47,562 nucleotides of DNA from assembly GCA_016203765.1 (NCBI GenBank), contig JACQMB010000148.1, positions 1 through 47,562 on the forward strand. Direction: 5' to 3'. A program made the translations under genes and the position numbers. This DNA is from Deltaproteobacteria bacterium (lineage in GTDB: Bacteria > UBA10199 > SPLOWO2-01-44-7). How positions within the stretch are numbered: the first letter of the stretch is position 1; each line of letters opens with the position of its first letter. Under the pieces are notes generated by a model. It made no database searches and was not told where the DNA came from. It worked only from the letters and a program-made list of their open reading frames with translations. Shown one piece after another: positions 187 through 14,179 of this stretch.

Positions 187-558
187 ATGAATCAGCAAGG
201 AGTTTCCCCAAATCCGGCTCCCAATCAAGAGCGCACCTTCGGCATGCTCTGCCATCTGCTAGCCCTTTCCGGATTGATCGGGATTCCGTTTGGGCACATC
301 TTGGGCCCGCTGATTGTCTGGCTGATTAAAAAGGAGGAGTATCCGCTGGTCAACCGAGAGGGGAAAAAGGCCCTCAACTTTCAAATCTCGATGACCCTCT
401 ACGGCCTCATTGCCGGCATTTTGTGTTTCATCCTGATCGGCTTTGTTCTGATCGCCGCCTTGGTTGTGGCCGAAATCATTTTGATCATCATCGCCTCGGT
501 CAAGACGCACAACGGGGAAGATTTCCAATACCCCCTCACCATTCAATTTCTCAAATAG
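187..558 (+). CDS. DUF4870-like small integral membrane protein
   Basis: ERTFGMLCHLLALSGLIGIPFGHILGPLIVWLIKKEEYPLVNREGKKALNFQISMTLY matches the DUF4870 pattern as I remember it. Two to three TM segments. Confidence 0.7.
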   Translation: MNQQGVSPNPAPNQERTFGMLCHLLALSGLIGIPFGHILGPLIVWLIKKEEYPLVNREGKKALNFQISMTLYGLIAGILCFILIGFVLIAALVVAEIILIIIASVKTHNGEDFQYPLTIQFLK

Positions 559-588
559 TCGTATAATTCGACAAAAAATTTTTCTCCC
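557..588 (+). promoter_or_regulatory. Copy 1 of a repeated intergenic motif containing TATAAT (candidate -10 plus conserved leader)
   Basis: AGTCGTATAATTCGACAAAAAATTTTTCTCCC. A near-identical string recurs at 2569-2597. Both copies lie upstream of genes in the 688-3984 cluster. Confidence 0.4.
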
Positions 589-687
589 ATTTTCCGGATT
601 AAGAGTACAACGACAGATTGAATATCCCCATTCCCGCGCCCATCAGTAATTGACACCCTGCTAACAAAGAGGTATTTTGCGATCCCC

Positions 688-2109
688 ATGTCAAAAAAGA
701 GGAAGGGTTTTTTAATTTGTTTGGCGGTTTCATTGTTGTTTCTACCGGCCGTTGGCGGCCAGGCCTCTCCCAAATCTCAAGCGCTTATCCAGCAAGGGCA
801 TCAGCATTTAACAAAACAGCATTTTGAGCGGGCCTTAAAAAGTTTTGAGGCCGCGGCCAAACTCGACCCGCAAGACGGGCAGGCCCTTTTCTTTCAGGGC
901 GTTGCCCTGAACCGCCTTGGACGGTTTCACGAGGCGGGCAAAAAACTCGATCAGTCCGAAAAATTAGGGACACACCCCGACTGGGCCTTTGAGAGGGGCT
1001 GGGCCCATCTGGGGCAGGCTGAATTTAGCGAGGCGGTCGGCCGGTTGAAAGCCTATGAAAAGAAAAACGCCGGCCGCGGCCAGACCTCGGAGTTTATCGG
1101 CCGGGCCTATTTTGGCCTGGGCGATGCAAAAAAGGCCCGGCGCTACTTCGACAAGGCCTTGAAGCAGAATCCCGGTTTAAAACAGACGGTTAATTTGTAC
1201 CTCGCCGCCATGGAACGGTCTCCCCAGGCGAAAACCGACCAAAAGGCATCAAAACCGTGGGGCATTTTTTCCAATCTGGCCGGCACCTATAATACTAACG
1301 CCATCAATTTGGGCAATGGGGCCACCCTTCCCACCGATGTCGCCCGTCAGGATTCAACCTTCGCTTCGACATCAATCGGCGGCAACTATCGGCTTCGCCT
1401 TGGGGATAAAAACCAACTGGCCTTTGGACATCAGTTTTTGGGGAATGCCTATGAGGTTAGCACCAGGCTCAACATGATGGACAATTTCACCTCGATCCAG
1501 TTCCGCCGCTCCCTGAACCAGAAGCAGGTGTTGGGGATTACGGTTTCGAACGATTTTACGATTGTCCAGACCGCTAAATTTCGCAATCAAATCGGTTTCC
1601 GCCCTGTTTTCGGCTGGCAACTGGCGGATTGGCTGACCTCCGAGGGTTCCTACGCCTTCGGTTTTGGAGAATATTTCTTTCCATCCAACGCCAACCAAGA
1701 CCGGGATGGCCATTCCCATGTTGTAGGCTTGAGCAACTATTTGGGTGTTCCGAACACGAAATTAAGGTTTTTGTTGGGCTATAATCACCTCTGGAACCGG
1801 GCTGACGGCGCCGATTTTGATTTTCAGGGCAACAATTTAAATTTTGCCGTCAGCCATCCCCTCTTTTGGGAAGTGACCGCGGAGCTTTTTTTCAGTCAGG
1901 GCTGGAATCGTTTTGATAATGTCAACAGTCTCACGGCCAACACCATGCGCAGTGACGACGTCTCCAATGTCTTTACACAGATCAATTTCCCCATACATGG
2001 GGGGGTGCGGGGGTTTTTACGGACCGGCTATATGCGAAACAAATCGAACATTAACACGTTTAATTCCCGGGCTCATCAGGGGAATGTGGGGATCTTAGTG
2101 GGGATTTAA
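688..2109 (+). CDS. Outer-membrane protein: signal peptide + TPR repeats + C-terminal beta-barrel (Slam/DUF560-like architecture, unverified)
   Basis: Signal peptide MSKKRKGFLICLAVSLLFLPAVGGQA. TPR-like helices (FERALKSFEAAAKLDPQDGQALFFQGVALNRLGRFHEA; AKKARRYFDKALKQNP). The last ~290 aa are alternating-hydrophobic strand-like segments. The function call rests on architecture only. Confidence 0.6.
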   Translation: MSKKRKGFLICLAVSLLFLPAVGGQASPKSQALIQQGHQHLTKQHFERALKSFEAAAKLDPQDGQALFFQGVALNRLGRFHEAGKKLDQSEKLGTHPDWAFERGWAHLGQAEFSEAVGRLKAYEKKNAGRGQTSEFIGRAYFGLGDAKKARRYFDKALKQNPGLKQTVNLYLAAMERSPQAKTDQKASKPWGIFSNLAGTYNTNAINLGNGATLPTDVARQDSTFASTSIGGNYRLRLGDKNQLAFGHQFLGNAYEVSTRLNMMDNFTSIQFRRSLNQKQVLGITVSNDFTIVQTAKFRNQIGFRPVFGWQLADWLTSEGSYAFGFGEYFFPSNANQDRDGHSHVVGLSNYLGVPNTKLRFLLGYNHLWNRADGADFDFQGNNLNFAVSHPLFWEVTAELFFSQGWNRFDNVNSLTANTMRSDDVSNVFTQINFPIHGGVRGFLRTGYMRNKSNINTFNSRAHQGNVGILVGI

Positions 2110-2110
2110 T

Positions 2111-2557
2111 ATGGAGAAAAAATTTTTAATAAGTCTTTTGGGATTGGCCCTGGGCGTGTTTGCAAAAAATCTTTGGGCTTGCCCCGCCGGTCAGGTTTGT
2201 TCCGACGGAAGCGACACCTGCGAATCCAGCCTTTGCGTGGCTGACACGAGCGGCGGCGGTTCCTCCACCGCCCCGACCACGACCGAGGGGCAGTTGGGAT
2301 TAACCCTCGAACCCGTTTTGCAATTGGAGGGGAAGCTGGTTCGGGCTTTCCATTTTGACGCCAGCCAAAAGGACTCTTCCAACGGAGGCTGGACTTTTTA
2401 TGATCCCCGGCCAGAGTTTGCAGATGTCAACACCTTGACTCAAATCGCGCCAGGCGGGGTCTATTGGATTCAGGTCAATCAGGCAACAACCATTCAGTGG
2501 GATAGTCAGTCGGCCCCGATTCCCCTCTTTGAGGGGTGGAATATAGTCCCTCGGTAG
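2111..2557 (+). CDS. Secreted or lipoprotein candidate, unknown family (4-Cys N-terminal module + T/S/G linker + ~90 aa domain)
   Basis: ATG lies 1 nt after the stop of 688-2109. The signal peptide ends KNLWA/C, followed by CPAGQVCSDGSDTCESSLC and the linker GGGSSTAPTTTEGQLG. Confidence 0.65.
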   Translation: MEKKFLISLLGLALGVFAKNLWACPAGQVCSDGSDTCESSLCVADTSGGGSSTAPTTTEGQLGLTLEPVLQLEGKLVRAFHFDASQKDSSNGGWTFYDPRPEFADVNTLTQIAPGGVYWIQVNQATTIQWDSQSAPIPLFEGWNIVPR

Positions 2558-2568
2558 GTTAAAACCAC

Positions 2569-2597
2569 AGTCGTATAATCCACAGAAAAATTCTCCC
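2569..2597 (+). promoter_or_regulatory. Copy 2 of the TATAAT-containing repeated motif
   Basis: AGTCGTATAATCCACAGAAAAATTCTCCC, 33 nt upstream of ATG 2630. Compare with 557-588. Confidence 0.4.
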
Positions 2598-2629
2598 TCC
2601 TTTTTTTTGGATGGTGTAAAATCAGAAAC

Positions 2630-3448
2630 ATGGCTGTGAAAATCATTTCAATTGTAGTTGCCGCGATCTTGGGATTCTTCTTAAACCTGTCGTTTGCCCT
2701 GGCTTGTCCTTCCGGCATGGTTTGTCCCGAAGGCAAAGAATGCAGTCAGCCCAGTGACTGTACTACGGGTCCTCCCACCGCACCGGGCGGCGGCGTTTCA
2801 ACCACCCCGTCCACCGCCACCGGTGAAACCAGCTCGACGCCCACTACGACTCAGGAACAAATCGGTCAGACCGCCGATCCAAAGTCCGACCCCAATCTTG
2901 TTGGTGTGGAGATAAAACCTCTCACGGACCGGGACATAATGGATTTGACCTTCGGGCACGGGATGGTCCGGGCCTATTTGGATTTTGTGAATGCGATGGC
3001 AAACTTTGAACTGCGGGGGCCCCGCGGGGAAATGTCGGAGAGGAGGATGGAAAAGATAAGAGAACGAGCCAGGGAGCGGGCGGATAGGGAGGCGGGGGTT
3101 GACCAGGCCCTGGATGCGTGCAGAAAAACCAATGACAACTATGTCCGGGCCCATCAGGAGTGGAAACATCAGGTGAAGGTTCAAGACATGATCGGTATAG
3201 ACGTGGGGAGATTGCGGACAGAGTTGGAAAAACTGGGGGACGGTCCTAACCAGTATGGCATCCCAAGAAGTCAAATTTACGGAAATGCCCATCGGGAGTG
3301 GATTCAATCCCTTCTCAAAAGCGCCGACATGGAAAATGCGGTAACGAATGCCCGCACGTTGAAGGAGGAGGCCTGGGGCAAATATCTGTCCGCGCAAGAG
3401 AAGGCTGGTGATCTTCAACAACAGTATATGGGGGAATGGGGCAAATGA
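2630..3448 (+). CDS. Secreted or lipoprotein candidate, unknown family. N-terminus is paralogous to 2111-2557; C-terminal part is helical and charged.
   Basis: The signal peptide ends LSFALA/C, followed by CPSGMVCPEGKECSQPSDC. A T/S/P/G linker ends TTTQEQIGQT. The remaining ~180 aa are helical and rich in charged residues. Confidence 0.65.
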   Translation: MAVKIISIVVAAILGFFLNLSFALACPSGMVCPEGKECSQPSDCTTGPPTAPGGGVSTTPSTATGETSSTPTTTQEQIGQTADPKSDPNLVGVEIKPLTDRDIMDLTFGHGMVRAYLDFVNAMANFELRGPRGEMSERRMEKIRERARERADREAGVDQALDACRKTNDNYVRAHQEWKHQVKVQDMIGIDVGRLRTELEKLGDGPNQYGIPRSQIYGNAHREWIQSLLKSADMENAVTNARTLKEEAWGKYLSAQEKAGDLQQQYMGEWGK

Positions 3449-3984
3449 GGAACGGTGTTAAAACAGCGCTGATCCTTTTTATGATCGTTGGTTCGATCAG
3501 CGTGTGGGGCAAAGATCATGAGACGGCGGCAGATCGGATCCTGAAAAGACAAACCGAAAGCCCCAATTTGCAAAACAGGATGAAGCGGTGGGAGAAAGAG
3601 GTGAATGTTTTGGAAGCGGTCAGGGATTACGAACGTAAAAAGACGGAATATCAAGAGACGCTGGAAAATCTTGTAAAAATCCGCGGTGAGAATGAGTCGT
3701 TGCTTGCAGAATTAAGGGCGGCCTTTGAGGCATGGAGCAAAAACACTTCCTCAACAAAGACGTGGCGGTATTTACAGGCGCTCGAAAGGAAAGTTGCACA
3801 AGGGAGCGAGCAACAAAACCGCCTGCACGATTTGGCCGAACAGCTTTGGAAGGAAAAACAAAAGAGTTTTTTTGCCGCCCTTCAGACCAAGAAAAACGCC
3901 TACGCCTTGGAGATGAAGCATCAAATGACGGAAGTGGCCAGACGCGCTACCAAAGATGTTCCGATCCCCAAACCCCAAGATTGA
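3445..3984 (+). CDS. Secreted coiled-coil protein, unknown family
   Basis: ATG 3445 overlaps the TGA of the upstream gene (ATGA); an alternative ATG is at 3436. Signal peptide MRNGVKTALILFMIVGSISVWG. The rest is E/K/Q/L-rich and looks heptad-like. Confidence 0.6.
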   Translation: MRNGVKTALILFMIVGSISVWGKDHETAADRILKRQTESPNLQNRMKRWEKEVNVLEAVRDYERKKTEYQETLENLVKIRGENESLLAELRAAFEAWSKNTSSTKTWRYLQALERKVAQGSEQQNRLHDLAEQLWKEKQKSFFAALQTKKNAYALEMKHQMTEVARRATKDVPIPKPQD

Positions 3985-4021
3985 CAGTTAGGGCCAGGCA
4001 CCATATGTGATTCTCTCCTGT

Positions 4022-6292
4022 ATGTTCTCCGTTGAAACCACCCCTGAAATGGTTGCTCAAACCTTCAAAAGGCTGGGGAAAAATTTGCCCGTGATTCGCA
4101 AACGTTCGGGAAAGCCTCTGCTTTTGGCCGAGAAAATTTTGTACGGGCATCTGGTCGATCCTTCCAAACAGGAGCTGACGCGGGGCAAAAGCATTCTTCA
4201 GCTCAATCCAGACCGGGTGGTGATGCAGGATGCCACGGCGCAGATGGCCCTGTTGCAATTCATGGTGGCGGGACGAAAAACGACGGCGGTCCCCACCACC
4301 GTCCACTGCGACCACCTGATCCGCGCCCAGATGGGGGCAAAAGAAGACACGCTGGCGGCCATCAAGGAAAACAACGAGGTCTACGCCTTTTTGGAAAGCT
4401 GTTCGAAAAAATACGGGATCGGTTTTTGGCGGCCCGGCTCCGGGATCATCCATCAGGTTTTTTTGGAACAGTACGCCTTTCCCGGCGGGATGGTGATCGG
4501 AACCGATTCGCACACCCCCAACGCTGGGGGTTTATGCATGGTTGCTGTTGGGGTTGGAGGCGCCGACGCCGTGGATGTGATGGCCGGGATGCCGTGGGAG
4601 GTTTTGGCGCCTAAATTTGTTGGCGTTCGATTGACAGGCAAACTCAACGGCTGGAGCGCCCCCAAAGACGTGATTTTAAAAGTTTGCGAAAAACTGACGG
4701 TCAAGGGCGGGACCAACAAAATCATTGAATATTTCGGCCCCGGCTGTGCCTCGATTTCCGCCACCGGCAAGGGGACGATTACCAACATGGGGGCCGAGCT
4801 GGGGGCGACCACATCGATCTTTCCCTATGACAATCGAGTCGGCGATTATCTCAACGCGACCGAGCGGAGAGAGATCGCGAATTGGGCCGAACAACATCGG
4901 GAGTTTTTGGAAGACGATCCGGAGATCGCCAAAAACCCCGAAAAATATTTTGATGAGGTCATCGAAATTAATCTCGACAAGCTGGAACCGCACGTGGTCG
5001 GGCCCCATTCCCCCGATGTCTCCCGTCCTATTTCCAAACTGGGCGAGGATGCGAAAAAAAACAACTACCCCGTTGAAATTCGGTACGCCTTGATCGGCTC
5101 CTGCACCAATTCCTCGTACGAAGATATCGAACGGGCCGCCGATGTGGCCAGGCAGGCGGCCCGGCACGGCGCCAAAACCAAAATTCCGCTGATGATAACC
5201 CCCGGCTCCGAACAGGTTTTTGAAACCACTCGCCGGGACGGCCAGCTCCAAGCCTTGGAATCGGTCGGCGGAAAAATTTTGGCGAATGCCTGCGGGCCTT
5301 GCATCGGACAGTGGCAAAGGAGTGATATTAAAAAAGGGGAGAGCAACACGATTTTGACTTCGTATAACCGAAATTTCCCCCGCCGCAACGACGGCAATCC
5401 GCAAACGCTGGCTTTTATCGGCTCTCCCGAACTGGTCGTCGCCGTCTCCTTTGGGGGCCGGCTCGATTTTGACCCGACGCGCGACGCGGTGGAGACCGGC
5501 GGAAAGAAATGGAAGTTTCAGCCCCCTGGCATCGCTGATGACATTCCCAAAAAAGGATTCATCCTTTCCAAAAAAGGATATGAACCGCCGGCCGAGGACC
5601 CGGGGCGGATCGAAGTCAAAGTCAATTCCAAAAGCGACCGCCTGCAGGTTTTAACGCCGTTTGAACCGTGGGACGGAAATGATTTTGAAAAACTTCCGTT
5701 GCTGATTAAAGCAAAAGGGAAATGCACAACGGATCACATCTCACCGGCCGGCCCCTGGCTTCAGTACCGCGGCCATCTGGACAATATCAGCAACAATCTT
5801 TTTGTCGGAGCGACCAACGCCTTTCAAAAAGAGGCGGGGAAGACCAAAAATATTTTGACGGGAGGGGTGGACGAAGTTCCCAAAGTCGCACGGGCTTATA
5901 AAAAAGAAGGGTTGCGCTGGGTGGCGGTGGGGGATGAAAATTATGGCGAGGGATCTTCGCGCGAGCACGCCGCCATGGAGCCGAGGCATTTGGGCTGTGC
6001 CGCGGTGATCGTCAAAAGTTTCGCCCGCATTCATGAAACCAATTTAAAAAAGCAGGGGGTCCTGCCGCTGACTTTTGCCAACGCCGCCGATTACGACAAG
6101 ATTCAGGAAGAGGACCGGATCAGCGTAACTGGCCTGAATGTTCTAAAACCGGGGCGGCCGGTCGCCGTCCTTTTGTGTCACAAGAATGGTTCCCAGGAAA
6201 AAATTTTCTGCAATCACTCCCTGACGGTCGAGCAGGTCAAATGGTTCCAGGCCGGCGGGGCCCTAAATTTGATCCGCCGACGGCAAAACTAA
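4022..6292 (+). CDS. Aconitate hydratase, mitochondrial (Aco2) type
   Basis: KILYGHLVDP, DRVVMQDATAQMALLQF, GTDSHTPNAGGL, IGSCTNSSYED, NACGPCIGQW, SYNRNFPRRNDG, GEGSSREHAA. About 755 aa. GTG 4007 is an alternative start. Confidence 0.92.
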   Translation: MFSVETTPEMVAQTFKRLGKNLPVIRKRSGKPLLLAEKILYGHLVDPSKQELTRGKSILQLNPDRVVMQDATAQMALLQFMVAGRKTTAVPTTVHCDHLIRAQMGAKEDTLAAIKENNEVYAFLESCSKKYGIGFWRPGSGIIHQVFLEQYAFPGGMVIGTDSHTPNAGGLCMVAVGVGGADAVDVMAGMPWEVLAPKFVGVRLTGKLNGWSAPKDVILKVCEKLTVKGGTNKIIEYFGPGCASISATGKGTITNMGAELGATTSIFPYDNRVGDYLNATERREIANWAEQHREFLEDDPEIAKNPEKYFDEVIEINLDKLEPHVVGPHSPDVSRPISKLGEDAKKNNYPVEIRYALIGSCTNSSYEDIERAADVARQAARHGAKTKIPLMITPGSEQVFETTRRDGQLQALESVGGKILANACGPCIGQWQRSDIKKGESNTILTSYNRNFPRRNDGNPQTLAFIGSPELVVAVSFGGRLDFDPTRDAVETGGKKWKFQPPGIADDIPKKGFILSKKGYEPPAEDPGRIEVKVNSKSDRLQVLTPFEPWDGNDFEKLPLLIKAKGKCTTDHISPAGPWLQYRGHLDNISNNLFVGATNAFQKEAGKTKNILTGGVDEVPKVARAYKKEGLRWVAVGDENYGEGSSREHAAMEPRHLGCAAVIVKSFARIHETNLKKQGVLPLTFANAADYDKIQEEDRISVTGLNVLKPGRPVAVLLCHKNGSQEKIFCNHSLTVEQVKWFQAGGALNLIRRRQN

Positions 6293-7677
6293 ACGGTCCT
6301 TGAAAATTTCCCTTCCCCCGGTTTTAGGTAGGCATCAAAAACCATTCCGATATTCCGCAGAAAAAGCCTTCCCAACGGCGTAACGCGCAGGCCGTTTGTT
6401 TCCAACTCGACCAGACCATCTTGGGCCAGTGTTTCAAGCGAGGGCCGCTCTTTTTCAAAAAGGGCGAAAAAGTTTTCTAACTGGACCTGCTGGTGGCAGA
6501 AGAGTTCTCGGATCACCATTTGCCGGAGCAAATCATCCGTCGAGAGTTTAAGCCCCGCGCGCGTCGCCAGTGTTTTTTCAAAATCGGTCTCCTCGTAGTC
6601 TTTTAACTTTTTCGCGTTCTGGGCAAAAGAGCCGTCCACCGAACTGATGGCGGTAACCCCCATCCCGATCAAATCGCAATCCGCCTGGGTGGTGTAACCT
6701 TGAAAGTTGCGATACATCGTTTTATCCCGTTGCGCGCGGGTCAATTCATCCCCGGCCTTGGCAAAGTGGTCGAGGCCGATAAACGTAAAGCCGGCATCTT
6801 GAAAGACCTCGATCGCGCCGCAGAACATTTCCAGTTTTGTCTCGCCGGAGGGGAGGTCCCGTTCGGAAATTTTGCGCTGATGGGCGTGCATCCAGGGGAC
6901 AAAAGCAAAGTTAAAGAGGGCGATCCGGTCGGGGTTTAGTTCTAAAACCTGTTCCAGCGTTTTTTCAAAACTCTTTGGGGTTTGCCGAGGCAGGCCATAG
7001 ACAAGATCGATGTTGACGCTTTGGAATTTTAATTCGCGGCAACCGTCTACCGCCTTTTTCGTTTCTTCAAACGACTGAATCCGTCCCGCCTCCCTTTGGA
7101 CGTCGGGGTTAAAATCCTGCACGCCGAGGCTGGTGCGGTTGAATCCGAGGCCGCGCAATGTTTTTAGTTGTTCTGCGGAGGTCACGCGCGGATCGATCTC
7201 AATCGAGATTTCGGCATTGTCGGCAAAGGAAAAATGCCTGGCAATCGCCCCCCACAGTTTTTCGATCTGTTCACAGCTTAGATAAGTCGGCGTACCACCT
7301 CCCCAATGGAACTGGGAGACCCTTCGGGAAGAATCGACGAGGGAGGCCGCGCGGCCGATCTCCCCGGAGAGGGCTGTTAAATAAGGTTCGGCCACTTCGT
7401 GCCGGCGGGTGGCCACCACCGAACAGGCGCAAAAGGTGCATCGCTCGTCGCAAAAAGGGATGTGGAAATATAAAGAAAGCGGCCGGCCGGCCGCGTTGCT
7501 CTTTGCCAATTGCGCGGCGAAATCTTCCGGTCCGAAATTTTTGGACCAATTGGGCGCGGTGGGATAACTAGTATACCTCGGCCCCGGACGGGAATATTTT
7601 TCGATCAGTTGGGGACTGACGGTAACGGCTTGGCCGTCAATCGTGGCTTTGATCATAAAAATTTCCTTTTCAGTCAA
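6289..7677 (-). CDS. hemN: Oxygen-independent coproporphyrinogen III oxidase (radical SAM)
   Basis: PGPRYTSYPTAPNW, HIPFCDERCTFCAC (CxxxCxxC), HWGGGTPTYL. 462 aa. Its stop overlaps the aconitase stop (convergent CTAA). Confidence 0.9.
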   Translation of the reverse strand: MTEKEIFMIKATIDGQAVTVSPQLIEKYSRPGPRYTSYPTAPNWSKNFGPEDFAAQLAKSNAAGRPLSLYFHIPFCDERCTFCACSVVATRRHEVAEPYLTALSGEIGRAASLVDSSRRVSQFHWGGGTPTYLSCEQIEKLWGAIARHFSFADNAEISIEIDPRVTSAEQLKTLRGLGFNRTSLGVQDFNPDVQREAGRIQSFEETKKAVDGCRELKFQSVNIDLVYGLPRQTPKSFEKTLEQVLELNPDRIALFNFAFVPWMHAHQRKISERDLPSGETKLEMFCGAIEVFQDAGFTFIGLDHFAKAGDELTRAQRDKTMYRNFQGYTTQADCDLIGMGVTAISSVDGSFAQNAKKLKDYEETDFEKTLATRAGLKLSTDDLLRQMVIRELFCHQQVQLENFFALFEKERPSLETLAQDGLVELETNGLRVTPLGRLFLRNIGMVFDAYLKPGEGKFSRTV

Positions 7678-8539
7678 CGGGCTCGCATGCCAGGCCCGCC
7701 GTTTTTTTCACCTTGTCCCCACTGGTTTGCCAGGCCAGATAAACGGTGGCCGGGTATTCAAAAGAGAGGAGTTGACCTATTTTTTCCAGAAGGAGCCAGC
7801 GGGTCGCCGGGTCCAGATCCATCTCGGCGATGTTTTTCTCGAATCCGAGGGCCAATTTTGTCTGTCGGGTCATATCTATCTCCCTGTCAAGCATTTCGTC
7901 CTCGCATTGGAAGGGACCTAAATTGCAAAAAAACCAGGTGGAGACCCGGCGAAGAAAGCCGGGCCTTTCTTTCAAACTGTCCTGATCGGGATAGCCGGCG
8001 ATGGTGAGCCGGGCCAGGGGTTCCAGATCCTCTCTCGGTTGAACAAGAGTCAGGGCCGAAAGTTCAAAGTGGGTGTGAATGCCGGACGTAAGCAAAGGAA
8101 GGACAAAGGTTCTCTGTTGTTCCATGTTTTCATCAAGCTCAAAGGTAAAAAAGACGGGGTAGCCGAACTGCCCTTCCGCATGGTCGTCGGGGGGAACGGC
8201 GACCGGATCGAAAAAGGAAAGAGGGGCGCATCCGTCCTCCACACCCACCGCGAATCGGGGAAAGGCGGAGACGGAAACATAAAAATAGTGATACCCCTTC
8301 TTTTCAAAGGGAAGGCCTTCGATGGAAAAAGCCGCCGTTCCCCGGAGCTCCGGCCCGCCGAAAGCGATGTAGCGGTCGGCGACGGGGGGGCGCACGCAAT
8401 CTTCCGGCCCGAATTCATGGAGGATAATTTTGTCCTCGTAACCGTCCCGGTTGACGTCTTCCTTATAAACAATGGAGAGGGGATCGCAGATTTTGCGAAA
8501 ACCCGTTCTGCCGATGGGAATTTCGCCGCCGGGATTCAT
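7670..8539 (-). CDS. Hypothetical protein (no recognisable domain, no signal peptide)
   Basis: 289-aa ORF whose end overlaps the hemN start by 8 nt, so it sits in the same minus-strand operon-like array. It has one DVNRDGYED Ca-loop-like string. Confidence 0.55.
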   Translation of the reverse strand: MNPGGEIPIGRTGFRKICDPLSIVYKEDVNRDGYEDKIILHEFGPEDCVRPPVADRYIAFGGPELRGTAAFSIEGLPFEKKGYHYFYVSVSAFPRFAVGVEDGCAPLSFFDPVAVPPDDHAEGQFGYPVFFTFELDENMEQQRTFVLPLLTSGIHTHFELSALTLVQPREDLEPLARLTIAGYPDQDSLKERPGFLRRVSTWFFCNLGPFQCEDEMLDREIDMTRQTKLALGFEKNIAEMDLDPATRWLLLEKIGQLLSFEYPATVYLAWQTSGDKVKKTAGLACEPVD

Positions 8540-8567: not shown

Positions 8568-9269
8568 TCACACCACTCCTTTCCAGTCAAACGATTCCTT
8601 TAGGCCGTAGGCGGTGCGGCCGGCTTGAGCACCCTTTACAATCTCGCGATGGAGGACCCAGCCTTTTAACGGAACTCTGGTTTGGACCAGGGTTTCGGTT
8701 GCTTTCGGTTCAAAAAGGCCTCCCCATTGCAGGCGGTCTTTCAAAAAGCGCAGGCCGAAGAAGGTTTGTTTGGGATCGGCCTTCCAGTCAATCCGTCCGC
8801 CTTGGCCGTCAGCCGCCAGCAGTAACGAATAACAAAACGGGACCTGGAGTTTTTTGAAAGTGGAAGTAATCAGTCTCCCTTGTTCGGAAACACCATGGCC
8901 AGTTTTTAAAACCTCCGAGCCGATCCGGCCGGAGACCAGCCGGAGGGTGTGATACTGAAATTTCACCATCCCCAGGGCAAGCGTTCGTTTGGCCAGAGGG
9001 TTTGGAACAAACTCCAGAGAAAAATCGACAGGCGTTTTTCCGGAAAGCCTCCAATGCGCCTTGGTTTCAAAAATCAAGTCCTTCATCTCTTCGGCGGCAA
9101 AGTGGTGGAGTTTTTGTTTCTTCACGTTATAAAAAGTGGCGTTTTCAAAACGGGTGCCGTAAAAAGGGAAGTGAATTTTGCGTTTGCCCAGCAGGACGAT
9201 CCATTCTTCTCCCGAAAGCGTTTTGAGAATCAAAAACAGATGATGGTTGCCTGTTTTTACAATAAACAT
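8568..9269 (-). CDS. Hypothetical protein
   Basis: 233-aa ORF whose start lies 2 nt after the stop of the ALDH gene. Composition is non-repetitive and protein-like. I recognise no motif. Confidence 0.55.
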   Translation of the reverse strand: MFIVKTGNHHLFLILKTLSGEEWIVLLGKRKIHFPFYGTRFENATFYNVKKQKLHHFAAEEMKDLIFETKAHWRLSGKTPVDFSLEFVPNPLAKRTLALGMVKFQYHTLRLVSGRIGSEVLKTGHGVSEQGRLITSTFKKLQVPFCYSLLLAADGQGGRIDWKADPKQTFFGLRFLKDRLQWGGLFEPKATETLVQTRVPLKGWVLHREIVKGAQAGRTAYGLKESFDWKGVV

Positions 9270-12079: not shown

Positions 12080-13011
12080 AGCCGGGTGCTAAAATACCGC
12101 TCTCCAATGTCGTTGAGCAAGGTGACAATACAGCCCTTTTTTATTTTTTTGGCAACCTGATAGGCAACATGCAGGTAGGCGCCGGAGGACTGGCCGACGA
12201 ACAGTCCTTTGAGGGCGAGTTTCCTGCAGATTTCGGCGGCCGGTTCAATGCCGACGGCGATTTTTTGGTCGACAAGGGTTTGGTCGAAAATTTCCGGGAT
12301 GATGTTTCCTGGGCCAAGGGATTTGAGGCCTTCAATGCCGGGAAACTCCTCCGCATCGGCCAGCACAATTTGCACGTCTTTGCCGGCCTCTTTCAGGCGC
12401 CGGCCACAGCCGGTAATCGTGCCACCGGTTCCCACACCGCTGACAAAGTGGGTGATGGTCTCCGGCACCTGTTTCAAAATTTCTGCGGCAGTGGTTTCAA
12501 AATGGGCGTGCCAGTTGTTGGCATTTTTGTATTGGTCGGGGAGAAAATATTTTTTGGGATCGGCTTGATGGCGCTGATGGCAAACCCGGATAGCTTCATC
12601 GTAGCCCTTGACCGGATCGGTCTCGATGATCTTGGCGCCGTGGGCTTGGATGCGCTTTTTCCTCTCTACGCTGGCGTTTCCGGGGAGGACGATTTCCACC
12701 GGAAATCCCAGCATCGCCCCGATGGCCGCATAGGCAATCCCGGCATTGCCGGAGGAGGAATCGAGAATAGTTTTGCCTTTTGCAAGCTCTCCCGATTCGA
12801 GAGCCGCCAAAAGCATATGTCTCACCGGCCGGTCTTTCAAAGACCCGCCGGGGTTGGCAAATTCGCATTTGGCGAAAATCGAAACCCCCGGGCACTCTTT
12901 TTCAAACAGGTTTATCCGAATCAGCGGCGTATTCCCGATGGCGGCCAGGGCCGGATATTTTTCCAGCCATTTTTTGAGGTTGGGCATCAATCTAGAAAAC
13001 CTTTCCATCAA
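12070..13011 (-). CDS. cysM: Cysteine synthase, PLP-dependent (CysM-type by context)
   Basis: NTPLIRIN, ANPGGSLKDRP (PLP lysine), SSSGNAGIA, SGVGTGGTITG. It is linked to sulfur-carrier genes upstream. Confidence 0.85.
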   Translation of the reverse strand: MMERFSRLMPNLKKWLEKYPALAAIGNTPLIRINLFEKECPGVSIFAKCEFANPGGSLKDRPVRHMLLAALESGELAKGKTILDSSSGNAGIAYAAIGAMLGFPVEIVLPGNASVERKKRIQAHGAKIIETDPVKGYDEAIRVCHQRHQADPKKYFLPDQYKNANNWHAHFETTAAEILKQVPETITHFVSGVGTGGTITGCGRRLKEAGKDVQIVLADAEEFPGIEGLKSLGPGNIIPEIFDQTLVDQKIAVGIEPAAEICRKLALKGLFVGQSSGAYLHVAYQVAKKIKKGCIVTLLNDIGERYFSTRLWD

Positions 13012-14179
13012 AAAGTTCCCTTAGAAAATCCTCGACGGGATAAACTTCCACATCGTCAAAGTAATAGCGTTCTTTGCCGCAATAAACGCCAATCATTTTT
13101 TCAACTTTTATTTTGCCCGTCTCCGCAAGGGAGCGCATCGCCCCCTCCCATTTCCTCTGCCAGTGTTTGGCGTATTTGGCCTCAATGCAGATCACTCCGG
13201 CTTTGGAAGCGGAGGCCCTTTTTTTTGTCTCAATGACAAAATCGATTTCCGCGCCGCCCGCCGTTCGGTAGTAAAACAGAGGCCGATGTTTAGAAGATAT
13301 CTGGTTGAAAACCCTAAGTTCGTGAAAAAGCAGGGTTTCCAAAGACCACCCCAGCCAGTCTGCCGCCGCGGGATTAAAAAGGAGCCCCGCCGCGCCCCTC
13401 GCCACACCGGCATCAAACCAGTAGAATTTGGGATGGGCCTGCTCTCTGACTTTTGCCTGCGGCCGGAAAGGGGGGAGGAAATGGCCAAGCAGTGTATCCT
13501 CCAGAATGGAAAAATAGACGTCCACCGTTGACCGGGGGACTTTTGCATCCCGGGAAATATTTTCTTTATTCAAAATCTGGCCGTTGACAATTCCGGCCAC
13601 CTCCAAAAAACGGATGAAAGGCTCGGTATTGCGCACCAGTCCCTCTTCCTTGATTTCTTCCCGAATATAGGTGTGGACATAGGCTTGAAGGATTGCCGAC
13701 GCCTCTTTGGGATGCAACACGACAAGCGGCAGGCTTCCCCATTGGAGCCGCTCTTCCAGATGAAATCGGTCGCGGATTTCGGGATAGGCGAATCCCTCCA
13801 TGTGAAGGGTAACAGCCCGTCCGGCCAGAAGGTCGGCGCTGCCTCGCTTGAGTTTGCGGGCGGAGGAACCGCTCAAGGCGAAGCGGTAATCCCCTTTCCC
13901 CATCAGACGGTGGACTTCGTTCAAAAGGGTGGGGATTTTCTGGATCTCATCAATGCAAATCCATGCTTTTTTCAAATGGCCCTTTATTTTAGCCTCCAAC
14001 AGGGAAGGGTCACGGCTTAATTCCAAAAATGTCCCTGTCTCCAGAAGATCGAAGCGGATTGCGCCCTCGAGATTTTGCTCCAGCCAGACGCTTTTCCCCA
14101 CGGAACGGGGTCCGAAGAGGAAGAAGGAGAGTTTTGGCAGCGGAAGCAACCTTGGGAGGGTCCCCGGCATAGAGTGCAA
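12992..14179 (-). CDS. AAA+ ATPase of the AAA_14/DUF4143 type with a PD-(D/E)xK-like C-terminus
   Basis: Walker A is FGPRSVGKS and Walker B is WICIDEIQK. The C-terminal AEIDFVIE...VICIEAKYAK looks like a D...ExK nuclease motif. Confidence 0.8.
   Translation of the reverse strand: MHSMPGTLPRLLPLPKLSFFLFGPRSVGKSVWLEQNLEGAIRFDLLETGTFLELSRDPSLLEAKIKGHLKKAWICIDEIQKIPTLLNEVHRLMGKGDYRFALSGSSARKLKRGSADLLAGRAVTLHMEGFAYPEIRDRFHLEERLQWGSLPLVVLHPKEASAILQAYVHTYIREEIKEEGLVRNTEPFIRFLEVAGIVNGQILNKENISRDAKVPRSTVDVYFSILEDTLLGHFLPPFRPQAKVREQAHPKFYWFDAGVARGAAGLLFNPAAADWLGWSLETLLFHELRVFNQISSKHRPLFYYRTAGGAEIDFVIETKKRASASKAGVICIEAKYAKHWQRKWEGAMRSLAETGKIKVEKMIGVYCGKERYYFDDVEVYPVEDFLRELFDGKVF

What the first reader, a model, noticed from the sequence alone, without database searches (positions are those of the whole stretch)
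557..3984. Candidate undescribed surface-protein export locus: TPR + beta-barrel OM protein with three downstream signal-peptide proteins of unknown family
Gene 688-2109 encodes a signal peptide, ~170 aa of TPR helices and ~290 aa of strand-like sequence, i.e. a periplasmic TPR domain plus an OM barrel. Its stop is 1 nt before ATG 2111. Genes 2111-2557, 2630-3448 and 3445-3984 (ATGA overlap) are co-directional, all carry signal peptides, and match no family I recognise. TPR + barrel with cargo genes directly downstream is how Slam/type XI secretion systems (DUF560) are organised. The first two downstream proteins have a Cys straight after the hydrophobic core (LWA/C, ALA/C). They could therefore be lipoproteins, which is the classic Slam cargo class. 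Their sequences look nothing like TbpB/fHbp/hemophilin-type cargo, so if this is a T11SS it would carry a new cargo family.
Basis: partly seen in the sequence, partly recalled or inferred. Interest (0 to 1): 0.78.

Follow-up and report, generated by a model that had tools for sequence, protein, structure and literature searches.

The report
Slam-like barrel with new cargo family
An outer-membrane protein distantly related to the Slam/type 11 secretion translocon is always followed by one to four fast-evolving secreted proteins with the same two short docking-type motifs and none of the known cargo features, so this is probably a new variant of that export system, still unproven by experiment.

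Summary
The four genes exist as described. P1 (688-2109) has a signal peptide, about 5 TPR hairpins and a predicted 14-strand barrel. P1 gets no Pfam DUF560/SlipAM hit itself. It is 35% identical (E 7e-82, full length) to P0046, which passes the SlipAM threshold. SlipAM is also the commonest barrel match among its 20 nearest relatives (13/20), with DUF2860 and BBP2_2 close behind. So P1 is a divergent Slam-superfamily protein.

In every related locus with readable downstream sequence (15), the barrel gene is followed within 1-44 nt by co-directional signal-peptide proteins. In the 11 loci of the close clade, 35 of 36 distinct proteins share one layout: signal peptide, N-terminal Cys or 4-Cys knot, S/T/G/P linker, motif "EPTTTKDQLGLTxxP", a hypervariable middle, and usually a C-terminal "D.QNAP.P" motif. 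They match no known family and show no sign of the 8-strand barrel that defines known T11SS cargo.

The lipoprotein idea is not supported for the P3 class and is ambiguous for P2.

Best reading: a T11SS-like translocon with a new, motif-defined cargo family. This is a new variant of a known kind. Export itself is untested.

The parts
650..678 (+). Sigma-70-like promoter match (TTGACA-17-TATTTT) just upstream of P1. Weak evidence only.
   Evidence: 10 of 12 matches, but 4 sites were found against 2.6 expected in shuffles, so this is not above chance.
688..2109 (+). P1: TPR plus 14-strand outer-membrane barrel, a divergent Slam/DUF560-superfamily protein (473 aa)
688..765 (+). P1 signal peptide (about residues 1-26, MSKKRKGFLICLAVSLLFLPAVGGQA/SP). 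No lipobox.
   Evidence: Sequence and alignment. The cleavage site is inferred.
769..1218 (+). P1 periplasmic TPR domain (residues 28-177, about 5 helical hairpins)
   Evidence: Pfam TPR_16, TPR_2 and TPR_1 hits; helices in the AF2 model
1258..2103 (+). P1 barrel domain (residues 191-472, 14 predicted strands)
   Evidence: AF2/DSSP. Best PDB fold matches are the 14-strand CymA and OmpG. The profile finds 950 representative clusters.
2111..2557 (+). P2: candidate cargo of the small beta-rich class (148 aa)
2180..2236 (+). P2 four-Cys module CPAGQVCSDGSDTCESSLC (residues 24-42), immediately after the signal peptide
   Evidence: C24, P25, G27, C30 and C42 are invariant in 20 family members
2273..2314 (+). 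P2 N-terminal conserved motif PTTTEGQLGLTLEP (residues 55-68)
2501..2524 (+). P2 C-terminal conserved motif DSQSAPIP (residues 131-138)
   Evidence: P138 is invariant and the D.QNAP.P consensus holds across 20 members
2630..3448 (+). P3: candidate cargo of the charged helical class (272 aa). It has the N-terminal module but no C-terminal motif.
2705..2761 (+). P3 four-Cys module CPSGMVCPEGKECSQPSDC (residues 26-44)
   Evidence: Sequence; BLASTP similarity to the P2 class
2837..2881 (+). P3 N-terminal conserved motif TPTTTQEQIGQTADP (residues 70-84)
3445..3984 (+). P4: secreted, charged helical protein (179 aa from ATG 3445; an alternative ATG lies at 3436). It lacks the N-motif but has the C-terminal tail.
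3955..3981 (+). P4 C-terminal tail DVPIPKPQD, which matches NVPPPKPHD of its positional counterpart in L005

Best explanation
P1 is a divergent member of the Slam/DUF560 (type 11 secretion) outer-membrane protein superfamily. It has a periplasmic TPR domain fused to a 14-strand barrel. P2, P3 and P4 are its dedicated substrates or partners. They are Sec-exported, most likely cleaved by signal peptidase I, and probably oxidised in the periplasm (a 4-Cys knot or a single N-terminal Cys). P1 then recognises them through short linear motifs: an N-proximal 'EPTTTKDQLGLTxxP' placed 17-43 residues after the Cys, and/or a C-terminal 'D.QNAP.P'. It threads them, unfolded, through the barrel so that the fast-evolving middle region is exposed or released outside the cell. 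Shown here: the homology of the barrel, the architecture, the strict gene linkage, the signal-peptide-like N-termini, the bipartite motifs and the hypervariability. Inferred: that P1 translocates these proteins, which motif binds where, and the final location of the proteins.
For: Barrel. P1 has TPR hits plus 14 predicted strands. A barrel-only profile finds 950 representative clusters, mostly about 500 aa with the barrel at the C-terminus. 25 of 85 relatives match SlipAM. P0046 passes the SlipAM threshold (35.4 vs 22 bits, model positions 51-277 of 288) and aligns to P1 over its full length at E 7e-82. SlipAM matches 13 of the 20 nearest relatives when only the barrel is scanned.
Linkage. In the window, L001, L003, L004, L005, L006, L007, L009, L011, L013 and L017 the barrel gene is followed by 1-4 co-directional signal-peptide genes, with gaps of 1-44 nt in the 12 loci measured. 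The reverse search from a cargo profile lands next to a barrel gene again.
Motifs. 35 of 36 distinct downstream proteins carry the N-motif at residues 37-76. In the window it occurs only in P2 and P3, against 0.28 expected by chance. The motif variant tracks the barrel clade: QQALT in L003/L004, DFLGLN in the distant L015.
Rates. Against the closest genome (L005), aconitase is 80% identical, the barrel about 60% and P2 about 30%.
Model. Both motifs are disordered in the P2 model, as expected for docking peptides.
Precedent. Slam translocates unfolded cargo after recognising a C-terminal specificity motif (PMC9090332). Cluster-1 T11SS OMPs have about 2.4 adjacent cargo genes each, and cargo of the other clusters is unknown (PMC12282271).
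Against: P1 itself gets no SlipAM hit at E<=1. DUF2860, BBP2_2/EpsL and TIGR03016 barrels are nearly as close, so the functional analogy to Slam rests on architecture and context. The downstream proteins show no sign of the C-terminal 8-strand barrel that unifies all known T11SS cargo (PMC12282271). P4 lacks the N-motif and P3 lacks the C-motif. There is no experimental or structural evidence for translocation or surface location. The P2 model is low-confidence (pLDDT 61).
Confidence: 0.55

Rival explanations
1. Envelope complex rather than secretion. P2-P4 stay in the periplasm as structural or regulatory partners of P1. For example, coiled-coil tethers or spacers could be docked by their motifs to the TPR domain or the periplasmic face of the barrel, and the barrel would serve only as a membrane anchor.
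For: TPR domains typically bind short extended peptides (established knowledge). The P3/P4 class is 32-35% charged and helical-looking, like periplasmic coiled-coil proteins. No known secretion signal or cargo barrel is present. Response-regulator genes follow the cargo genes in L001 and L009.
Against: A hypervariable middle and roughly 30% identity between genomes whose aconitase is 80% identical are unusual for structural periplasmic partners and typical of exposed proteins. The barrel is a 14-strand Slam-superfamily channel, not a small anchor.
Confidence: 0.22
2. Classical Slam with surface-lipoprotein cargo. P2 and P3 would be lipidated at the Cys after LWA/ALA, carried by Lol, and flipped to the surface by P1.
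For: In the P2 class the [LIV][FWL]AC context is invariant, and the Cys is followed by a long S/T/G linker, as in the anchor peptide of TbpB-type lipoproteins (own knowledge). W_P3 has ALAC.
Against: The Cys is the first of four invariant cysteines (C-x5-C-x5-C-x6-C), so lipidation would leave an odd number for disulfides. Position -2 is F or W, and polar or charged residues (N, D, E, K, P) sit at -4 to -6, which fits an SPase I c-region better than a lipobox. In the P3 class of relatives the Cys lies 1-5 residues after the A-x-A-type site (ADC, ANC, ADHC, AGEGEPC) or is absent, and yet the rest of the module is conserved. P4 has no Cys.
Confidence: 0.1
3. P1 is a polysaccharide or other non-protein export porin of the PgaA/BcsC or PEP-CTERM-associated EpsL/TIGR03016 type, and the downstream genes are accessory or unrelated.
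For: Foldseek also hits BcsC, PelB and PgaA. 7 of 85 relatives hit TIGR03016 (best E 1e-13) and 7 hit EpsL. 8 of the 20 nearest relatives hit BBP2_2.
Against: The barrel has 14 strands, not 16. No glycosyltransferase, exosortase or polysaccharide genes lie next to the barrel in the window or in the 14 related loci, where flanks differ and the only constant partners are the motif-bearing proteins. SlipAM is the most frequent match among the nearest relatives.
Confidence: 0.06

Closest known systems
Slam / type 11 secretion system OMPs (Pfam PF04575 SlipAM/DUF560; e.g. Neisseria Slam1/2, Xenorhabdus NilB/HrpB)
   Same: Both have a signal peptide, an N-terminal periplasmic TPR domain and a C-terminal 14-strand barrel. 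Homology is detectable through intermediates. Both have one or more substrate genes directly adjacent (PMC5449769, PMC12282271). Cargo carries long disordered linkers and a proposed C-terminal specificity motif (PMC9090332).
   Different: P1 falls below the Pfam model (no hit at E<=1). The candidate cargo shows no detectable C-terminal 8-strand barrel (TbpBBD/lipoprotein C type) and is probably not lipidated. It is instead defined by two short linear motifs flanking a hypervariable region. The hosts are uncultured environmental 'Deltaproteobacteria bacterium' MAGs, not host-associated Proteobacteria.
DUF2860 (PF11059) and BBP2_2/EpsL (PF10082), TIGR03016 PEP-CTERM-associated OMPs
   Same: These are related barrels of similar size, matched by a comparable share of the relatives.
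   Different: To my knowledge those families are barrel-only proteins, without the fused TPR domain. DUF2860 has no known function. EpsL and TIGR03016 sit in exopolysaccharide/exosortase loci, which are absent here.
PgaA / BcsC / PelB exopolysaccharide secretins
   Same: They have TPR domains plus a C-terminal outer-membrane barrel. There are weak Foldseek and NCBIfam similarities.
   Different: They have 16-strand barrels and much longer TPR arrays, they are always found with synthase genes, and their substrate is polysaccharide.
Type 5 secretion (autotransporters, two-partner secretion)
   Same: Functional analogy only. An unfolded passenger is threaded through a small barrel, with a linker occupying the lumen and a variable exposed domain.
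   Different: There is no sequence or fold relation. In T5SS the barrel is 12 or 16 strands, and the passenger is fused to it or carries a TPS domain.

Membership tests
T11SS / Slam OMP (PF04575 SlipAM) | N-terminal periplasmic TPR-containing domain | tested here: met
   TPR_16, TPR_2 and TPR_1 hits over residues 30-190; helices 28-177 in the AF2 model
T11SS / Slam OMP (PF04575 SlipAM) | C-terminal 14-stranded outer-membrane barrel | tested here: met
   14 strands over residues 191-472, with most barrel blocks at pLDDT 70-92. The top PDB folds are the 14-strand CymA and OmpG.
T11SS / Slam OMP (PF04575 SlipAM) | The protein itself matches the Pfam SlipAM model at the gathering score | tested here: not met
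   P1 gets no SlipAM hit even at E<=1
T11SS / Slam OMP (PF04575 SlipAM) | Homology to bona fide SlipAM proteins (transitive) | tested here: met
   P0046 scores 35.4 bits on SlipAM against a cut-off of 22. P1 vs P0046 gives E 7e-82 and 35% identity over the full length. 25 of 85 relatives and 13 of the 20 nearest relatives hit SlipAM. Caveat: DUF2860 (10/20) and BBP2_2 (8/20) are nearly as frequent.
T11SS / Slam system | Substrate gene(s) encoded next to the OMP gene | tested here: met
   1-4 co-directional signal-peptide genes follow the barrel gene, 1-44 nt after it in the 12 loci measured, in every related locus with readable downstream sequence
T11SS cargo (cluster 1) | C-terminal 8-stranded beta-barrel domain (TbpBBD / lipoprotein C type) | tested here: not met
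   P2-P4 and ten relatives have no Pfam or NCBIfam hit. The P2 model has four short strands after residue 70 and no barrel, at low confidence (pLDDT 61). P3 and P4 are charged and helical by composition.
Slam-dependent surface lipoproteins | Lipobox with Cys at +1 of the mature protein | tested here: inconclusive
   The P2 class has an invariant [LIV][FWL]AC, but this Cys is the first of four invariant cysteines and polar residues sit at -4 to -6. The P3-class relatives have the Cys 1-5 residues after the cleavage site or none, and P4 has none. SignalP and LipoP were not available.
T11SS / Slam system | OMP-dependent surface exposure or secretion of the cargo | not testable with these tools
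   This needs co-expression with protease shaving or surface labelling
PgaA/BcsC-type EPS secretin | 16-strand barrel and adjacent polysaccharide synthase genes | tested here: not met
   The barrel has 14 strands. The neighbours are DUF4870, aconitase and a HemN-like gene, and no synthase is present in the related loci.
PEP-CTERM-associated OMP (TIGR03016 / EpsL) | Match to the model, and an exosortase/PEP-CTERM locus context | tested here: not met
   P1 has no hit, and only 7 of 85 relatives hit these models. No exosortase or PEP-CTERM genes were called in the flanks examined. The cargo tail is not followed by a transmembrane helix.

The most novel reading that the evidence does not exclude
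This could be a lipid-free, two-component surface-display system. The cargo would be threaded C-terminus-first through the Slam-like barrel. The N-terminal disulfide knot (or a disulfide-linked dimer) is too bulky to pass and would act as a periplasmic stopper. The 17-43-residue S/T-rich linker plus the conserved DQLGLT strand would occupy the lumen. The hypervariable domain would then be held on the cell surface without a lipid anchor, working like a 'split autotransporter'. P3 (N-module only) and P4 (C-tail only) might supply the two halves in trans as a heterodimeric coiled coil.
Probability: 0.15. Interest if true: 0.85.

Novelty: new variant of a known kind. Interest (0 to 1): 0.6.

Why it matters
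Type 11 secretion is the most recently defined Gram-negative secretion route. Only cluster-1 systems from animal-associated bacteria have verified cargo, and all of that cargo carries a C-terminal 8-strand barrel. What the other sequence clusters export is an open question (PMC12282271). This locus gives a clean, strictly linked OMP-cargo pairing in which the cargo shows no such domain and instead shares two short linear motifs around a hypervariable core. If P1 does export these proteins, three things follow. The substrate rules of the Slam superfamily become broader. There would be a minimal, portable targeting signal to test. And a family of fast-evolving surface proteins in uncultured groundwater and sediment bacteria would come into view. 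It also shows that the Pfam DUF560 model misses a large divergent branch: about 950 representative clusters, most of them unrecognised.

Tried and rejected
- Direct Pfam and NCBIfam scans of P1-P4 gave TPR hits only and nothing for the barrel or the cargo.
- A PDB sequence search returned TPR proteins only.
- Foldseek against the PDB returned generic 14- and 16-strand barrels. No Slam structure was among the hits, so fold search cannot assign the family.
- The word-indexed homologue search found only 15 barrel relatives. The exhaustive profile search was needed to reach the DUF560 bridge.
- The GTDB scan gave only 3 loci and the JGI metagenome scan only 1, so neighbourhood sampling relied on Logan, ENA and NCBI contigs. 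The broad alignment A6 was too diverse for the locus scan.
The rerun with database members gave a low-confidence model, so no fold search was run on it.
- The polysaccharide-secretin reading was rejected on strand count and context.
- A PEP-CTERM-like reading of the C-terminal 'APxP' tail was rejected because no transmembrane helix or basic cluster follows it.
- A P3/P4 split-gene artefact was considered unlikely, because P4 has its own strongly hydrophobic signal-like segment and a Shine-Dalgarno sequence before ATG 3445.
- No Rfam families are present in the window. The promoter and terminator scans were at chance level.
- Literature searches found nothing on DUF2860 function and no report of barrel-less T11SS cargo.

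Full report
**1. Observation**

The ORF list confirms four co-directional genes: P1 688-2109 (473 aa), P2 2111-2557 (148 aa), P3 2630-3448 (272 aa) and P4 3436/3445-3984. TAA at 2107-2109 is followed by one base and then ATG 2111, with GGGGA upstream. An ATGA overlap lies at 3445-3448, with GGGGG ten bases upstream, which favours ATG 3445 (179 aa) over ATG 3436.

P1 matches only TPR families (residues about 30-190) in Pfam and NCBIfam, with nothing over its last ~285 residues. P2-P4 match no family. All three downstream proteins have basic, hydrophobic N-termini. The surrounding window is ordinary chromosomal housekeeping: DUF4870, aconitase, a HemN-like radical SAM enzyme, aldehyde dehydrogenase, fumarase, acetyl-CoA synthetase and an RND pump. 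There are no Rfam hits.

**2. The barrel protein**

AlphaFold2 on a 15-sequence alignment (mean pLDDT 75) gives helices over residues 28-177 (about 5 TPR-like hairpins) and exactly 14 strands over 191-472. Foldseek against the PDB ranks the 14-strand barrels CymA and OmpG first. Generic porins follow, and then BcsC, PelB and PgaA at poorer TM-scores. No Slam structure was among the hits, so fold search cannot assign a family.

The word-indexed search found only 15 homologues in 5.8 billion proteins, all with the same TPR + barrel layout. The named ones are 'Deltaproteobacteria bacterium' MAG proteins annotated only as 'tetratricopeptide repeat protein'.

An exhaustive HMM search with a barrel-only profile found 950 representative clusters at E<=1e-3, and 106 at E<=1e-30. 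Most are about 500 aa with the barrel at the C-terminus. Of 85 of these relatives, 25 match Pfam SlipAM/DUF560 (best 5e-10) and 25 match DUF2860.

P0046 is the clearest bridge:
- It matches the window's barrel profile at 5.6e-51.
- It scores 35.4 bits on SlipAM against a cut-off of 22, over model positions 51-277 of 288.
- It aligns with P1 over TPR and barrel at E 7e-82 and 35% identity.

For the 20 nearest relatives trimmed to the barrel, the matches are SlipAM 13, DUF2860 10, BBP2_2 8 and DUF2490 7. NCBIfam adds TIGR03016 and EpsL for 7 relatives each.

Conclusion: P1 is a divergent member of a cluster of related barrels in which SlipAM is the nearest named family. The fused TPR + 14-strand architecture is the one that defines Slam (PMC5449769, PMC8406197). 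P1 itself fails the Pfam model, so I file it as superfamily-level homology and not as curated-family membership.

**3. Linkage**

Neighbourhoods were recovered for the window and 14 related loci. In the close clade the barrel gene is followed by co-directional signal-peptide genes as follows:

| Locus | Genes after the barrel gene |
|---|---|
| L001 | 144 and 242 aa |
| L003 | 133 aa |
| L004 | 96, 84, 217 and 267 aa |
| L005 | 136, 221 and 244 aa, then aconitase, as in the window |
| L006 | 141 and 226 aa, plus a third cut by the contig end |
| L007 | 142 aa |
| L009 | 131 and about 280 aa |
| L011 | 294 and 248 aa |
| L013 | 132 aa |
| L017/L018 | 132, 226 and 281 aa |

Gaps between the barrel gene and the first downstream gene are 1-44 nt in the 12 loci measured. 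Flanking genes otherwise differ between loci.

The reverse test also holds. A profile of P2-class proteins retrieved 20 unnamed proteins. The one on the longest contig (P0173) lies directly downstream of a barrel gene.

More distant barrels (L012 with the bona fide SlipAM protein, L015 and L016) are also followed by a signal-peptide protein with an N-terminal Cys and/or charged helical regions. L010, at 23% identity, has no such co-directional neighbour.

**4. The downstream proteins are one modular family**

Alignment of 20 members and a table of 36 distinct proteins show a common layout:
- A signal peptide ending in [LIV][FWLY]A.
- A 4-Cys module, C-P-x-G-x-x-C-P-x-G-x-x-C-x6-C, in the P2 class and in W_P3 and L011_294. 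Most other P3-class proteins have a single Cys 1-5 residues into the mature chain, and a few have none.
- An S/T/G/P-rich linker.
- The motif 'EP[TS]TTK[DE]Q[LM]GLT[FLY]x[PS]', which always starts at residues 37-76 and 17-43 residues after the last N-terminal Cys.
- A middle region that cannot be aligned between members. It runs from about 20 to more than 200 aa and is either a small beta-rich segment or a 32-35% charged, helical-looking segment.
- In most members, a C-terminal '[FL]D.Q[NS]A[PS].P' or 'xVPxPKPxD' motif 3-15 residues from the end.

All but W_P4 have the N-motif. P0175 was missed by my regex but has DQLGLT. In the window's six-frame translation the N-motif occurs only in P2 and P3, against 0.28 hits expected.

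W_P3 lacks the C-motif. W_P4 lacks the N-module but ends in DVPIPKPQD, close to NVPPPKPHD of its positional counterpart in L005.

The motif variant follows the barrel clade: DQQALT in the L003/L004 clade, and DFLGLN after the distant P0019. That is consistent with co-evolution.

No member hits any Pfam family. The AF2 model of P2 is poor (pLDDT 61) and shows no 8-strand barrel. It leaves both motifs disordered (residues 48-72 and 134-148 below pLDDT 50), as expected for peptides that fold on a partner.

Against the closest genome (L005), aconitase is 80% identical, the barrel about 60% and P2 about 30%. The partners therefore evolve far faster than the translocon.

**5. Lipoprotein question**

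In the P2 class the Cys directly follows [LIV][FWL]A, so a lipobox cannot be excluded. Several points argue for signal peptidase I cleavage followed by disulfide formation:
- This Cys is the first of four invariant cysteines.
- Position -2 is F or W.
- Positions -4 to -6 are often N, D, E, K or P.
- P3-class relatives keep the rest of the module, yet their Cys sits after ADC, ANC, ADHC or AGEGEPC, or is missing.

SignalP and LipoP were not available. I rate the lipoprotein reading unsupported for P3 and P4 and ambiguous for P2.

**6. Mechanism**

Established knowledge of the family:
- Slam is an autonomous outer-membrane translocon that moves unfolded cargo, kept unfolded by Skp.
- It is proposed to recognise a C-terminal specificity motif (PMC9090332).
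- Cargo genes sit next to the OMP gene, at about 2.4 per OMP in cluster 1 (PMC5449769, PMC12282271).

By homology, architecture and linkage, the most likely function of P1 is to recognise P2-P4 through their linear motifs and pass them through the barrel. That would expose or release the hypervariable region. The TPR groove and the barrel seam or lumen are the candidate docking sites.

One further inference rests on topology parity (periplasmic TPR, strand 1 running outward). The superfamily-wide near-invariant polar residues R339-D340, G374/D376, R421/D423 and S453-N454 all fall at the extracellular ends of strands. This hints at a conserved gate or exit site.

A more speculative version is that the disulfide knot acts as a periplasmic stopper with the linker left in the lumen, which would anchor the cargo without lipid.

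The rivals are a periplasmic complex, classical lipoprotein cargo, and a polysaccharide or PEP-CTERM-type porin. They are weighed in the structured fields.

**7. Comparison and novelty**

The OMP is a new, divergent member of a known superfamily. The candidate cargo differs from all ten described T11SS cargo architectures, which share the C-terminal barrel (PMC12282271). Cargo of non-cluster-1 systems is an acknowledged gap in the field. I found no paper describing motif-defined, barrel-less T11SS cargo, and none on DUF2860 function.

I rate this a new variant of a known kind. The homology and linkage are solid. The transport function is inferred.

Noticed in passing
window 2630-3448 and 3445-3984: P3 carries the N-terminal module (Cys knot, linker, TTTQEQIGQT) but no C-terminal APxP motif. 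P4 carries the C-terminal tail (DVPIPKPQD) but no N-module. The two genes overlap by ATGA. They may act as a complementary pair, for example a heterodimeric coiled coil, and not as two independent cargos.
   Followed up: partly
window 4007-6292; L005:4936-7206: The aconitase gene starts 22 nt after P4 on the same strand. The same barrel, three cargo genes, then aconitase order occurs in L005 (aconitase 80% identical). This is probably lineage synteny and not a functional link, but co-transcription was not tested.
   Followed up: partly
L001:5570-5866; L009 (frame 1, after the P3-like gene): In two related loci a stand-alone response-regulator receiver gene directly follows the cargo genes. The window has none at that position.
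   Followed up: no
L001:6334-7467: A 377-aa signal-peptide protein with a very long Pro/Ala/Val-rich region and a C-terminal transmembrane anchor followed by KKKK lies downstream of the locus in the nzgw604 MAG. It has no Pfam hit.
   Followed up: no
L017:4405-5129: A nucleotidyltransferase/HEPN pair (a MNT-HEPN toxin-antitoxin-like module) sits immediately after the three cargo genes in one related contig.
   Followed up: no
window 187-558: A DUF4870 small membrane protein (E 4e-38) lies directly upstream on the same strand. It is not conserved next to the barrel in the other loci.
   Followed up: yes
window 7670-8539 (-) and 8568-9269 (-): Two sizeable ORFs (289 and 233 aa) downstream of the HemN-like gene have no Pfam family at E<=1e-5.
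   Followed up: no
window 12992-14179 (-); L003:1-248; L005:7187-8149: An AAA_14 + DUF4143 ATPase gene recurs within a few kb of the locus in the window and in two related contigs.
   Followed up: no
L010:4801-6438: The only other GTDB hit is a 545-aa TPR + barrel protein (23% identity) in a high-GC 'sfNOB_N1' genome. Its next gene, encoding a Gln/Ser-rich signal-peptide protein, is on the opposite strand. The tight cargo linkage may therefore be specific to part of the superfamily.
   Followed up: partly
L005:1579-3017; L017:838-2239: In two public assemblies the barrel gene is broken by a scaffold gap (a run of N/X) and was called as two ORFs. The 210-217-aa 'proteins' P0012 and P0013 are fragments and not a barrel-only variant.
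   Followed up: yes
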